Shown piece after piece: positions 14,488 to 29,286 of a DNA stretch of 34,912 bases. Position 1 is the stretch's first letter, and every line of letters starts with the position of its first letter. Source of the stretch: Octopus sinensis (Eukaryota). A program made the translations under genes and the position numbers. Under the pieces are notes generated by a model that saw only the letters and a list, made by a program, of their open reading frames with translations, was not told the DNA's origin and ran no database searches. Location: contig NW_021828095.1 of NCBI RefSeq assembly GCF_006345805.1, positions 1 through 34,912 of the forward strand, in the 5' to 3' direction.

Positions 14488-15093
14488 TTAGTGAGTTTTC
14501 CAGTATTTAAGTTCTATACTTAGGCACACACACACACTGAACGTAAAGAGTCGTAAATAAAATAACAATTTATTTTCTCTAAATGTAATAAGAAACAAGA
14601 ACAGGAGAAAAGAAGGAAGACAGTTTATTAAAGGAACCCCTGGGTATTACTGGTACAGATTATATTGACCCCAGAGTGATAGTAAATATTCTGGTAGGAT
14701 TTTAACATGGAACGAAAGAGACAAATTAAATTATGTAAGGGGATGATTCTCTATTTACCCAGGGTCGGAGTAAATAGGGAAACTACAAAGGAGAGAGTGA
14801 GGAAGAAGAGAGAGAGAGAGAGAGTAGTTCTAGATGGATGAAAGGAAGAAGAGAGAGGATTTGAACCTGTGACGTTGAGGAAATGGAGAACGAAGAAGAG
14901 TAAAAGCGTCAGTCAGGCAACAACAATAACAATTATGGTGATGATTAATTAATAAAGTAGATTACAGGGGCGAAAGAGAGAAGAAACAATGACCCCATGG
15001 TGGATTAACCTGAATGACTGAATGAAAAAGAAACAAACATTATTGAAACATAAAAGAAACAGATTTGGATATTCCCAGATCCAGGGGACTTAC

Positions 15094-15244
15094 TGCTGAA
15101 CTGCCACATGCAGTGGTGTGTCTCCATCGTTGGCAACCACATTGGCATCGATGCCATTGTGACCCAACAAAATCGACAGTGTGCAAGTATCCCCGATCAC
15201 AGGCCTTGCAGCGGTGTTTGACCATTTACATCTCGAGGATTAAC
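15094..15244 (-). pseudogene. Exon B2 (151 nt as assembled), duplicate of B1 with two 2-nt deletions; frame-restored reading VNPRDVNGQTPLHxACDRGYLHTVDxLLGHNGIDANVVANDGDTPLHVAVQ(Q)
   Basis: Acceptor tttatCAG|GTT and donor CAGCA|GTAAGT are intact. It is 4 nt shorter than B1, with an in-frame TGA after QTPLQGL. It may be a functional exon corrupted by consensus errors. Confidence 0.65.
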
Positions 15245-15589
15245 CTGATAAAGAAAAGAATAAAACACTAAAATGGTGTCTGAAAGGGGAGTCGGGTGGT
15301 GAAGAATTAAAGAAAAACTCACAGAAAAAGAGAAGAGAGGAATGAAATTAATTAACAGGTGGAATGATTGGGGTGGGAGTAGGTAATGGAGATTTCTATT
15401 GTATATACACAACGTTGTATACACACATACATATGTACATATAAATATAAGTTATACACCACACACACAAACACACGCATATAGGATGAATAACTCAATA
15501 AATAAACACATAGAGCAGCAAAATGTGTGTTTGTGTGTATGTGGTGTGTGTGTATGTTGTGTGTGTTCATAGTTTACATTTATTCTTTT

Positions 15590-15800
15590 ATTCTTTCTTT
15601 CATTTTTTCAGTCATGTGACTGTGGCCATGCTGGAGCACTGTCGTTAGTCGAGCAAATCGACCCCAGTAAGCCTTGTACTTATTTTATATTTTTCTTTTG
15701 CTGAAACGCTAGTTTACAGGGACCGTAAACACACCAGCAGCGGTTGTCAAGCGATGTTGGGGACAAATACAGACACACAAACAAAACAACCACGTACACA
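15590..15800 (-). mobile_element. SINE 3' half (duplicate at ~25255-25445)
   Basis: cagtcatgtgactgtggccatgctggagcac...gagcaaatcgaccccag...ggttgtcaagcgatgttgggg; inverse similarity to 7676-7805. Confidence 0.72.
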
Positions 15801-16585
15801 CAGACCACTCATAACACACACACAGACACGCCCATATATGTACAATATATAATATATATATATATATATGGACATACATATAACATATAATATATATTCT
15901 GTATATATAAGGCAAGATGTGTGTGTGTGTACGTTTTTGTAATTTATGCACATCTACAAATTAAGACGCATGCCGCTCAAATTTTAAGGGGTCATTCGTC
16001 ACGATCCCGGCAGTATTTTCGTCAAATTTCTCCCCGAGACATCCGCGAAAAGCGGGTATAATTTTGAGCCATAACTTCTAAATTTTTAAGATGGCGAAAG
16101 CTACCATTGTTTACAAAGCTAACATGAGTTAAGTTCTCTCCTAGCGACGGTGTAAATAGAGGAGGGAGAAGGAGAGGGAGAGAGAGAGATTTTTTATAAT
16201 TTCGTCTTTTACTGGGCATAACAGACCACAGGTGTTGTTATGTATGTTTTATGTGTGAATGGCTTCAGTCACGCATACACACACGCGAGCATGTATGCGT
16301 AAAAGACACATAAATGCAATGTTTGTGTGTGTGTTGCGTATATATATATACGGGCAACATAACCGATATTCTCCGTTTCTCCAAACTAATTTCTAAATTA
16401 GCTGAATCCGTTGTTCTAATCATAGCGATATTATAGCTGGTCTGCGTGAACATGGGAGAGAGCAGAGGTTACCAGAGCAAAAGACCTACGTGTTGACTGT
16501 AGACACGCTCCTTCGAAACGATCAGCTATTATTTTGTAAACAATGTTTCGAAACTGTTCATGTGTTTTCGAAAGGAGAGGGCAAC

Positions 16586-17026
16586 CTAAAGCGTTTGACC
16601 CGGTCATAAAAACAAACAAAAAATAGTAATATGTGTAAAAGAACTTCCTCTAAACGAATATGACCAAATAAACGTGCTCTCGCAAAAGGGGTGGGGGGAG
16701 AGGCCTATGGCCTTTTCTTTGATAATATCTTTCTTGCTCATTTAAATTCAGTTCAATGCAGTCTTGCCTTGAACCAAACCTTTCTCTTTGTGTGTGTGTG
16801 TTCTTGATAATCGTTTAGAACAAGTTGTTTTACACCTATTACACTATTTTTTTGTTTTTGTGCCCGGGTCAGACATGTAACATCCACGATGTGAATTTTC
16901 CGAGGCCTCTCCCCCACTCCCCTTTCGCGATCGCACATTTTTTGAGTCATATTCGTTTAGAAGAATTTGTTTTACACCTATTACACTATTTTTTTGTTTG
17001 TTTTATGACCGGGTCAAACACTTTAG
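16586..17026. repeat. ~120-bp imperfect inverted repeat with an internal third partial copy (duplicate at ~26287-26728)
   Basis: 16586-16706 is the inverse of 16903-17026. A partial direct copy of the right arm lies at 16811-16873. Confidence 0.8.
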
Positions 17027-17420
17027 TTTGACCAGGAGAGGTATGACTTTCACATCGCTGCGGGAGAAGGTAGGCTCCTCTTTCCTGTTACAAAACTTTA
17101 CTTCCGTGTACCAATTTGCTTCAATTGATGGTATTACTCGGGTCGGAGGTGGTGGTGGGACAGTGGCAGGGGCAAGGCGTGCAGAAACATGTATACAATA
17201 GGTTATGTACGTATATGTTTGCGTGTGTGTGTGTTTAACCCATATATATAAACTAGTTGTGATCTGAACATAACCGCTTCTGAAACAGAGGTTCCGGAGC
17301 CCTTTTGGGCGTTTTATTTTCCTTGCTGGAAGGGTTCTCAATCCATGGGCAAAATGGGGTTACACGAAAAAAAAAAGAAAAAAAACAATCGATGAGTGTA
17401 AAAATCGAGAAACCGATTTC

Positions 17421-17474
17421 TTCTGGAACCATGTGGTTTATAAGCAAGCTACTAACCACACAGCCAATCCTGTG

Positions 17475-17478
<4 letters not shown>
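17421..17478 (-). mobile_element. Truncated SINE tRNA-like head (duplicate at ~27121-27178)
   Basis: Reverse strand taggcacaggattggctgtgtggttagtagcttgcttataaaccacatggttcc has the A box TGGCTGTGTGG and is cut off before the B box. Confidence 0.65.
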
Positions 17479-17514
<36 letters not shown>

Positions 17515-27176: not shown

Positions 27177-27232
<56 letters not shown>

Positions 27233-27519
27233 TGGTGTGTTGTATGTTCCTCATGAAGCTTTTTAAAATGAATATTTCTTAGTGAAATTTTCTGAAAATC
27301 CATCCCTATCCATGTCTTAATCAACAATTATGTCTGGAGTTGGGATTGGTTTGAAACTCATCAAATGGTTTTATTTTCTCAACATAATCGGAAAACACCA
27401 GAATGTTGTGGGAAAATATAAGGGTCTCAGGAAGTATATATATATTATTTTGTGTGTATGTGTGTGTGTGTATATGTATATACATAGTCAGTTATATATA
27501 TATATATAACATATATACA

Positions 27520-27860
27520 TATATTAATTATAATAAAGGGTTAATTGCAACAAGTTGCTCAAAACCACATACAGAAGATTATATTAATTATAGACGAATC
27601 GTTTCTGGATTAGAATCGAAAGTTCATTTCCTTGAACTTTCGGTTCTAATCCAGAAACGTTTCATCTATAATTAATCCAATAGGCTGGGATTTCGTTGTT
27701 TTCTTTCTCTTTACCATATACGGGTGACAAATTCTGTTTGTTTGTGGAGACTTTTTTTTTAGTAGGAGAAATAGTGATCTATTTGGCTGCTATTCCTAAT
27801 ATTTTCGGTATGTGGTTTTGAGCAATTTGTTGCAATTAACCCTTTATTATAATTAATATA
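27520..27860. mobile_element. Duplicate of the palindrome with ~120 bp missing from the left arm
   Basis: Same ends and centre as 17801-18260 but 341 bp long. acagaa is joined via gattat to attaattatagacg near 27576-27583. Confidence 0.88.
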
Positions 27861-28015
27861 ATTCTCACCAAATATGGTCTTTTCCATACCAAAAATCTAC
27901 TAGGTGAAATTTATCAATTTTATTAAATTATTATATTTCACCCATTTTTGTACACATATATATATATATATATATAATATATATATATATATATACATAC
28001 ATATATATATGTATG

Positions 28016-28059
<44 letters not shown>

Positions 28060-28495
28060 ATATATTTATATATATATATATATATTGTATATATATATGT
28101 ATATATATACTATTTATATGTGTATATACATATGTATAATATATATCTTTTATATCTTATGGCATATATACAGTGTACATACGGTATATATACGATTATA
28201 TATACATACCTATATAAGTGTGCCTCAAAGGTCGGGAGAGGAGTTGGAAAAATTCACAAGAGTAGATTTTGTTTCCTCGTAATTTACCGAAAGACGGATA
28301 AATTGTTAGGAAAATTTAGAGAAAATCCTTTCGGGGAAGATTGGGACTATTTCGGAATATAATATGAATGAAGAGAAACACTAACATATGCACACCACAA
28401 TTTACATTATATATACATCCATACATTTTATTTGTATATATATGTATATACACACAGACATACACACACGCATACACACATATATAGTCACTAAC

Positions 28496-28649
28496 CTCAA
28501 CAGCTTGCTGTTTCATTATAGCTTTCACACCATCTGTCCATTCCGGAGATGAACTTGCAGCCAAATGCAGAGGAGTATATCCGCAGTTGATCTTCTCGTT
28601 GACATTGCTGCCCCGAGAGAGTAATAGCTCCACAGCTTGAAGGTGCTTC
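28496..28649 (-). CDS. Exon A1 (154 nt, phase 2 to 0): KHLQAVELLLSRGSNVNEKINCGYTPLHLAASSSPEWTDGVKAIMKQQAVE
   Basis: Acceptor tttcctctCAG|G and donor GTTGAG|GTTAGT. In frame with exon X (AG|G = Arg). Matches ankyrin consensus ELLLSRGSNVN...GYTPLHLAA. Confidence 0.92.
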
Positions 28650-28719
28650 CTGAGAGGAAAAGATAGAAACAATGACTAATTTATATTAAATATGAAATTA
28701 TTTTGGCTTTCAGACGAAA

Positions 28720-29286
28720 CATCATCATCACCATCACCATCATTATCACCTGCACAATTATCATAGCCATCATCATCATTGCCACCACCTACATCATTAA
28801 CATCATCACCATCATCACCATCATCGCCATGATCACCACCATCATAGCCTACATCATCATCCTCATCATCATCTCCATCATCATCATCATCACCATCATT
28901 GCCATTATCACCATCATCATCATCATTCATCACCACCATCACCATCATAATCTCCAACATTAACATAATCAACATAATCATCATCATCTTCATCAACATT
29001 CATCGCCACTATCAACATAACCATCACCATCGGCATCGTCATAGACATCATAACCATCATCAACCTCATCGTATTCATCATCATCATCCTCGGCTTCACC
29101 ATCATCATCATCACCATCATTATTATCATGATCGACATCATCATCATCATCATCACTATCATCCTCATCATCATCATCATCATTATCATCATCATCATTA
29201 TTATCATCCTCATCACCATCATTATCATCATCATCAGCAACAGCATCAGCATCATCATCATCAGCCACAGCAGCAGCAGCAGCATT

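What the first reader, a model, noticed from the sequence alone, without database searches (positions are those of the whole stretch)
14488..28720. Frame-symmetric two-exon module tandemly duplicated inside the gene (ankyrin copy-number 'accordion')
Seen: exons A (154 nt, phase 2 to 0) and B (155 nt, phase 0 to 2) sum to 309 nt = 103 aa, about three ankyrin repeats, bounded by phase-2 introns. The block with its introns occurs twice in direct orientation (A offset 9589 bp), and B1 splices in frame to A2 (GG|G = Gly). Established: symmetric-phase modules can be gained or lost without a frameshift. Inference: the ankyrin array length of this gene can change in 3-repeat steps, and this is a recent event. 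Alternative: two haplotypes falsely joined in tandem by the assembler.
Basis: partly seen in the sequence, partly recalled or inferred. Interest (0 to 1): 0.82.

Follow-up and report, generated by a model that had tools for sequence, protein, structure and literature searches.

The report
Octopus ankyrin accordion in hypervariable family
This octopus gene sequence carries two head-to-tail copies of a two-exon, three-ankyrin-repeat block, likely made by crossing-over between GAT repeat arrays in its introns (this particular copy may be an assembly join), and it belongs to a large gene family whose predicted binding residues are hypervariable, as would be expected of immune-type recognition proteins.

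Summary
Observation largely confirmed. Exons A (154 nt, phase 2→0) and B (155 nt, 0→2) occur twice, A offset 9589, and B1→A2 reads in frame. But B2 is 151 nt with two 2-nt deletions, probably sequence errors, and NCBI's four models use only one module.

The contig is one member of an Octopus ankyrin–RING–(Death) family: 77 B exons examined, 127–136 search candidates. Five of 71 fetched stretches carry 2–3 modules. All 7 B→A introns are hybrids of the B–C and Z–A intronic (GAT)n arrays. One hybrid lineage is shared by four contigs with different exons, so the accordion is real in the family, in steps of 3 or 2 repeats. The window's own junction is unique, and a haplotype misjoin is not excluded (about 35%). 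B→A splicing was not seen.

Larger result: variation concentrates at predicted ankyrin binding positions (ω 2.6–6.9; framework about 1; control exon 0.5), and B1 and B2 differ mostly there. Likely a rapidly diversifying recognition/E3-ligase family; an immune role is inferred, not tested. Not found in 10 literature searches.

The parts
31434..31594 (-). Exon Z (161 nt, phase 0→2): ankyrin repeat 1 and first half of repeat 2; most variable exon in the family
   Evidence: in NCBI model P0006
28720..31231 (.). (GAT)n array of the Z–A intron (Z–A type)
28496..28649 (-). Exon A1 (154 nt, phase 2→0)
24745..24899 (-). Exon B1 (155 nt, phase 0→2), open
24123..28719 (.). Module copy 1 (A1, intron, B1, 620-nt flank)
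19131..24122 (.). Hybrid (GAT)n array: B–C type on the B1 side, switching to Z–A type at about 19770-19800 within a near-perfect GAT tract; the last ~650 nt are collinear with the Z–A array
18907..19060 (-). Exon A2 (154 nt, phase 2→0), 2 substitutions from A1
15094..15244 (-). Exon B2: 151 nt in the assembly, two 2-nt deletions (likely consensus errors), 6 readable amino-acid differences from B1
14488..19130 (.). Module copy 2 (A2, intron, B2, flank); rich in private 1-2-nt indels over 14.5-17.0 kb
8560..14600 (.). B–C intron insertion: (GAT)n array 8626-14487 plus ~50 unique nt, flanked by a ~60-nt direct repeat; absent from 37 of 59 B–C introns of the family
8123..8159 (-). Exon C (37 nt, phase 2→0)
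4024..4233 (-). Exon E (ankyrin repeats 6-7; acceptor as in the NCBI model; a second acceptor at 4221); control exon without positive selection
2151..2326 (-). Exon G (176 nt, phase 0→2, ends at a GTAAGT donor). No RING or Death exon matched in the window; in paralogs the RING exon lies 2-6 kb further on, so it is likely beyond the contig end

Best explanation
The window holds one member of a large Octopus ankyrin–RING–(Death) gene family in which the A–B exon block is present twice, likely through unequal crossing-over between the (GAT)n array upstream of exon A and the (GAT)n array downstream of exon B, which would add three ankyrin repeats without shifting the frame. Shown: both flanking introns are phase 2; the intron between the copies is a B–C/Z–A hybrid; such hybrids recur in the family, and one lineage of them is inherited; substitutions concentrate at ankyrin binding positions. 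Inferred: the array inserted into the B–C intron supplies the homology that makes the module expandable; this window's event is recent and local; B2's frameshifts are sequence errors; the added module brings a different binding surface and could be included or skipped in frame; the proteins act as variable target-recognition E3 ligases or adaptors, probably in innate immunity.
For: Hybrid introns: 6 of 6 B→A/a introns classify B–C type then Z–A type by 24-mers, whereas leave-one-out Z–A and B–C controls do not switch; a 7th was found in C13192. 7 of 7 start with the array-bearing form against 22 of 59 B–C introns (Fisher p 0.002, events not independent). C2689, C10256, C11563 and C2455 share 128-393 24-mers absent from all 45 Z–A and 59 B–C introns, while their A exons differ by 9-19 substitutions; pairs outside this group and C13192 share at most 46. 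Locality: the window hybrid's head best matches its own B–C array (379 vs 300 shared 24-mers) and its tail its own Z–A array (448 vs 348); A1/A2 are mutual nearest; C13192's two B exons are mutual nearest over their first 120 nt. B2 errors: copy 2 has 22 private indel clusters against 2 in copy 1 over 14.5-17.0 kb; contigs of 4 runs put 2 letters in at one of B2's deletions; 71 of 76 B exons are 155 nt. Selection: at a-priori positions 2, 3, 5, 10, 13, 33 (PMC4308713), ω = 4.3 (Z, 24 sequences), 6.9 (A, 26), 2.6 (B, 67), each p < 2e-4 against ω = 1; remaining codons 0.77-1.24; exon E 0.52. Exon B π 0.14 against 0.046 and 0.055 in flanking introns. Five of 6 B1/B2 changes lie at codons with high family entropy. 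RING and Death domains occur in paralogs.
Against: The window's hybrid is not in the shared lineage (at most 26 shared exclusive 24-mers), so nothing independent supports this junction. An assembler joining two haplotypes through GAT arrays would give the same hybrid and the same sister relation. All multi-module loci are on small contigs of one assembly, and none of the O. vulgaris or O. bimaculoides models retrieved has a B→A junction. NCBI's four models of this contig use a single module, B1→C. In run X16 the loose ends shown give A→B and B→C only; 75 rows were not shown. Nei–Gojobori ratios are weaker (whole exons 0.88-1.04; B binding positions pN 0.28 vs pS 0.24). Recombination (42 of 45 codon pairs four-gamete incompatible, codon set chosen partly post hoc), pseudogenes and sequence errors can inflate ω. 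No immune evidence was obtained.
Confidence: 0.58

Rival explanations
1. This contig's tandem is an assembly artefact: two alleles of a single-module gene joined through their GAT arrays. The family accordion is real elsewhere, and the B1/B2 differences are allelic.
For: Copy 2 looks unpolished (22 vs 2 private indel clusters; ts/tv 31/61 between copies). At most 34 substitution clusters in ~4.4 kb outside low-complexity sequence, a level compatible with alleles. The junction is unique to this contig. The arrays are ~82% alike at many offsets. NCBI models use one module.
Against: Inherited hybrid introns exist in the family. A join among more than 100 candidate paralogs would rarely pick sister copies, yet A1/A2 are mutual nearest. 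No leftover allelic Z was found (best other match 90%), though alleles may have been collapsed. The switch is sharp, within about 30-40 nt.
Confidence: 0.3
2. The duplication is real, but the second module is dead or skipped: B2's deletions are genuine and the mRNA is Z-A-B1-C, so protein length does not change.
For: B2 is frameshifted in the assembly. NCBI models splice B1→C. 7 of 76 family B exons were flagged: 5 off-length (B2 among them), 1 with a stop, 1 without a recognised donor. No B→A loose end among the rows shown.
Against: The deletions sit in a stretch with about 9 private indels per kb, insertions and deletions alike. B2's substitutions are states shared with paralogs. Both splice sites are intact.
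Confidence: 0.09
3. All multi-module loci are misassemblies and the family has a fixed single module; the diversity is neutral drift in a relaxed, partly pseudogenic family.
For: All cases come from small contigs of one assembly; none in other species' models; framework ω near 1.
Against: The shared, diverged hybrid lineage across four contigs; variation concentrated at binding positions (permutation p ≤ 0.0007 for Z, A, B; but also 0.0014 for E).
Confidence: 0.03

Closest known systems
Internal expansion of domain repeats by multi-domain duplication and exon shuffling (PMC1553488; abstract and passages read)
   Same: Duplication of several repeats at once, in the middle of the array, by recombination in introns.
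   Different: That paper leaves the mechanism and any intronic hotspots open. Here a candidate hotspot is visible (two intronic GAT arrays, one a polymorphic insertion), and the module boundaries fall mid-repeat, not in linkers.
Fungal NLRs with ANK/TPR/WD repeats, e.g. Podospora Pa_3_8560 (PMC4986451; passages read)
   Same: Repeat-number variation, recombination between repeats, and positive selection on ankyrin inner helices and the hairpin loop.
   Different: No NACHT/NB-ARC domain in 7 scanned proteins. The unit here is a spliced two-exon cassette expanded through intronic microsatellites; the effector parts are RING and Death.
Sea urchin SpTransformer (Sp185/333) clusters (PMC5103432; abstract and passages read)
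   Same: GAT short tandem repeats at the edges of tandem segmental duplications of 4.2-4.6 kb (here 4.6 kb) in a diverse multigene family.
   Different: There the duplicated segments mostly include whole genes, and the STRs are 4-68 units where numbers are given. Here an intragenic module is duplicated between kilobase arrays, and the proteins are unrelated.
Mind bomb MIB1/MIB2 E3 ligases (NCBI's label for many paralogs)
   Same: Ankyrin array followed by a C3HC4_3-type RING.
   Different: No MIB/HERC2, ZZ or SH3_15 match in 7 proteins (defining domains recalled); a C-terminal Death domain in some; many copies rather than one or two.
Designed ankyrin repeat libraries (PMC4308713; passages read)
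   Same: The randomised positions 2, 3, 5, 10, 13 are among the most variable positions in exons Z, A and B.
   Different: This is a natural germline family; position 33 is mostly conserved; binding is not shown.

Membership tests
Symmetric-phase tandem exon-module duplication | Flanking introns of equal phase; module length a multiple of 3 | tested here: met
   phase 2 on both sides; 309 nt
Symmetric-phase tandem exon-module duplication | Junction intron is a recombinant of the two flanking introns | tested here: met
Symmetric-phase tandem exon-module duplication | Both copies open and spliced into one mRNA | tested here: inconclusive
   B2 frameshifted in the assembly, likely error; no B→A end among rows shown
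Symmetric-phase tandem exon-module duplication | Copies physically in cis in the animal | not testable with these tools
   only short-read contigs of public runs were available
Mind bomb (MIB1/MIB2) | Ankyrin repeats | tested here: met
Mind bomb (MIB1/MIB2) | C-terminal RING | tested here: inconclusive
   zf-C3HC4_3 in 5 of 7 scanned proteins, 3 above the curated cut-off; none in the window, whose contig ends 2.15 kb after exon G
Mind bomb (MIB1/MIB2) | N-terminal MIB/HERC2–ZZ–SH3_15 region (recalled) | tested here: not met
   0 of 7 proteins
Fungal-type NLR with variable ANK repeats | NACHT or NB-ARC domain | tested here: not met
   0 of 7 proteins
Fungal-type NLR with variable ANK repeats | Positive selection on the concave binding face | tested here: met
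   ω 2.6-6.9 at a-priori positions; recombination caveat
Fungal-type NLR with variable ANK repeats | Repeat-number polymorphism between individuals | not tested
   variation seen only among loci of one assembly
SpTransformer-like STR-bounded duplications | GAT repeats at duplication edges | tested here: met
SpTransformer-like STR-bounded duplications | Induction on immune challenge | not testable with these tools
   no run descriptions on record; contigs give no expression level
Assembler false duplication | Half read depth and no spanning read | not testable with these tools
   no raw or long reads served

The most novel reading that the evidence does not exclude
Octopus has an undescribed germline-encoded variable recognition system: about a hundred ankyrin–RING–Death genes forming a natural DARPin-like library. 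It is diversified by positive selection and recombination at the binding face and lengthened in 2- or 3-repeat cassettes by intronic GAT-array crossing-over, with symmetric cassettes allowing in-frame alternative binding surfaces from one gene; the proteins act as intracellular pathogen sensors and E3 ligases.
Probability: 0.33. Interest if true: 0.82.

Novelty: new variant of a known kind. Interest (0 to 1): 0.58.

Why it matters
Symmetric exon duplication is textbook, but the sequence that drives repeat expansion is rarely visible. Here a polymorphic GAT insertion in one intron appears to make an ankyrin cassette expandable, which is a testable hotspot. The cassette sits in a large octopus family, labelled 'MIB2-like' by annotation, whose binding positions show the signature known from non-self recognition proteins. 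If the immune role holds, it is a candidate variable receptor family for cephalopods. It also warns that many of these genes lie on small, error-rich contigs and may be mis-modelled.

Tried and rejected
No RNA holder was listed on record for the block; runs called RNA are guesses. Reads were laid only on exon B2 and its flanks, not over a whole module, so a B→A joint was not tested directly; 75 loose-end rows and 625 pieces were not shown. The search for longer homologues was crowded out by unrelated ankyrin proteins and is uninformative on multi-module proteins in other species. Regions first taken as exons (3400-3860, 4850-5170) are intronic by the NCBI models. The 120-nt indel between the copies lies in one arm of a 230-nt inverted repeat, and neither exact state was found elsewhere, so I did not use it as a divergence marker. 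Whole-module distances from MAFFT and column counts were inflated by microsatellites and were replaced by k-mer polarisation. The window-wide private-indel scan is insensitive and did not separate true from false duplication; triplet phase breaks in the arrays were not informative either. The F3X4 ω for exon A's binding set did not optimise and was redone with F1X4. Exons off-length or with stops, and duplicates, were dropped before selection tests: 24 of 47 Z, 26 of 33 A, 67 of 76 B and 22 of 36 E were kept. Earlier scan notes: nothing found. Literature: 10 searches found no description of this family. The library lacks most subscription journals, and supplements of genome papers were not seen. 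MIB2 orthology and NLR membership were rejected.
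Full report
WHAT THE WINDOW IS. The window is the whole contig G000:C4566. A minus-strand ankyrin gene runs Z (31434-31594), A1, B1, A2, B2, C (8123-8159), E and G. An NCBI protein labelled Octopus sinensis, from a contig of 34912 nt, matches exon A at 100% (P0006).

OBSERVATION. A1 (28496-28649) and A2 (18907-19060) are 154 nt, 9589 apart and 2 substitutions different. B1 (24745-24899) is 155 nt, and Z-A1-B1-A2 has no stop. 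In the predicted structure (pLDDT 92.8) residues 103-204 hold six helices, so the module is three repeats cut in mid-repeat, and the register is kept on duplication. B2 (15094-15244) is 151 nt, with two 2-nt deletions. The two 4.6-kb blocks differ by 92 substitutions and 104 gap events, 74 of them single-base. Polarised against 70 other stretches, copy 2 has 22 private indel clusters against 2 in copy 1 over 14.5-17.0 kb. Contigs from four public runs put letters in at such sites, including one of B2's deletions (contigs show presence, not absence). I infer that B2's frameshifts are consensus errors.

FAMILY. Searches of G000 gave 127-136 first-look candidates for exon B, 69 for A and 48 for Z, with only 40 scored per search. 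I fetched 70 stretches besides the window and extracted 77 B exons. The usual gene is Z-(A or a)-B-C-E-G-RING, with Death in some. Exon a is a 46-nt version of A ending at an internal donor (28 copies, one called at 43 nt), one repeat shorter. The next exon was seen for 69 of 77 B exons: C in 62 and A or a in 7. Multi-module genes: the window (Z-A-B-A-B-C), C2689 (Z-a-B-A-B-A-B-C), C9812 (B-A-B-a-B-C), C10256 (B-A-B-C) and C13192 (a-B-a-B). NCBI models of C2689 and C10256 use the B→A junction; no retrieved O. vulgaris or O. bimaculoides model does. Pfam finds ankyrin in 7 of 7 proteins, RING in 5 and Death in 2, and no mind-bomb N-terminal or NOD domain. A contig of run X16 (RNA by guess) covers a B-like exon, and loose ends in that run read as exon C on one side and an A-type exon end on the other, so family members are spliced.

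MECHANISM. The Z–A introns profiled carry a (GAT)n array. B–C introns come in two forms: about 970 nt without an array (37 of 59), or 2.2-7.5 kb with an array inserted between ~60-nt direct repeats (22 of 59; three more long ones were resolved later). Every B→A/a intron starts as the array-bearing B–C form and ends as a Z–A array, whereas control introns do not switch. That is the product expected from unequal crossing-over between the two arrays. In the window the switch lies at about 19770-19800 in a near-perfect GAT tract; the head best matches this gene's own B–C array and the tail its own Z–A array. A misjoin by the assembler would look the same at a single locus. What separates the two is inheritance. 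C2689 and C10256 (B in view) and C11563 and C2455 (B not in view) share 128-393 24-mers found in none of 45 Z–A and 59 B–C introns, although their A exons differ by 9-19 substitutions. C13192 shares 123-130 with the first two, and other pairs share at most 46; among B–C pairs the like statistic has a median of 2 and a maximum of 135. So at least one hybrid intron is old and has spread. An unsampled Z–A subtype could explain part of this sharing, but not the sharing near the B end. The window's hybrid is outside that lineage, so it is either a new local event or a join of two haplotypes; I put these at about 65:35.

HYPERVARIABILITY. B1 and B2 differ at S17D, Q18R, F21L, N41D, K48V and R51Q, with one synonymous change; five of these six codons are high-entropy codons in the family. 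At positions taken beforehand from an ankyrin library paper (2, 3, 5, 10, 13, 33; PMC4308713, passages), a GY codon model gives ω 4.3 (Z), 6.9 (A) and 2.6 (B), each p < 2e-4 against 1. The other codons give 0.77, 1.24 and 0.98, and exon E gives 0.52. Exon B is about three times more diverse than its flanking introns (π 0.14 against 0.046 and 0.055), and 65 of 69 copies have distinct residue sets at ten variable codons (set partly post hoc). Against this: counting methods give weaker ratios, recombination is pervasive, and framework ω near 1 suggests relaxed constraint or errors.

COMPARISON. Multi-repeat internal duplication is known and its mechanism was left open (PMC1553488, abstract and passages). 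Ankyrin repeat-number variation with selection on the binding face is known in fungal NLRs (PMC4986451, passages). GAT repeats bound tandem duplications in sea urchin SpTransformer clusters (PMC5103432, abstract and passages). PMC5100051 (passages) notes that added ankyrin units are often tolerated. The octopus family works like these but is a member of none. Ten searches found no account of it (listed under Tried and rejected); other papers in those listings were seen only as listings.

VERDICT. The accordion is real in the family, with a specific likely mechanism. This contig's copy is probable but unproven, and translation of two modules is not shown. The most valuable lead is the family itself as a candidate variable recognition system. 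Shown: anatomy, hybrid introns, shared hybrid lineage, concentration of variation. Inferred: crossing-over, error origin of B2's deletions, binding, E3 activity, immune role.

Noticed in passing
28 family loci, e.g. G000:C9812:15139, C29:300411: A 46-nt exon 'a' is exon A cut at an internal GTAAGT donor, keeping phase 2→0 and dropping 36 aa (one repeat): a second, one-repeat length switch in the family.
   Followed up: partly
window 17800-18260 and 27520-27870: Inverted repeat with ~230-nt arms (MITE-like) in the A–B intron; 120 nt of one arm are missing in copy 1.
   Followed up: partly
window 5500-5620 and 5870-5990: A second inverted repeat (~115-nt arms, ~83% alike) in the C–E intron.
   Followed up: no
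window 31595-31740 and 2145-2151: The NCBI model's charged N-terminus reads through the TC-rich intron, and its stop reads through exon G's donor. Both are likely artefacts of the first exon and the RING exon lying beyond the contig ends.
   Followed up: partly
window 31640-34910: A 3.3-kb pyrimidine-rich array with higher-order units of about 120, 182 and 223 nt upstream of exon Z.
   Followed up: no
G000:C29:277000-319000; C20:995000-1001000: Family genes in divergent, head-to-head pairs. C29 holds several copies, and many O. vulgaris homologues come from one 12.0-Mb sequence, suggesting a cluster.
   Followed up: no
family exon B and flanks: Even four-fold sites of framework codons (π 0.08) exceed intron diversity (0.05), as if introns are homogenised while exon variants are retained.
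   Followed up: partly
window 8626-14487 and 19800-24122: The B–C (GAT)n arrays have recurring higher-order motifs and vary widely between paralogs (array-bearing B–C introns are 2.2-7.5 kb).
   Followed up: partly
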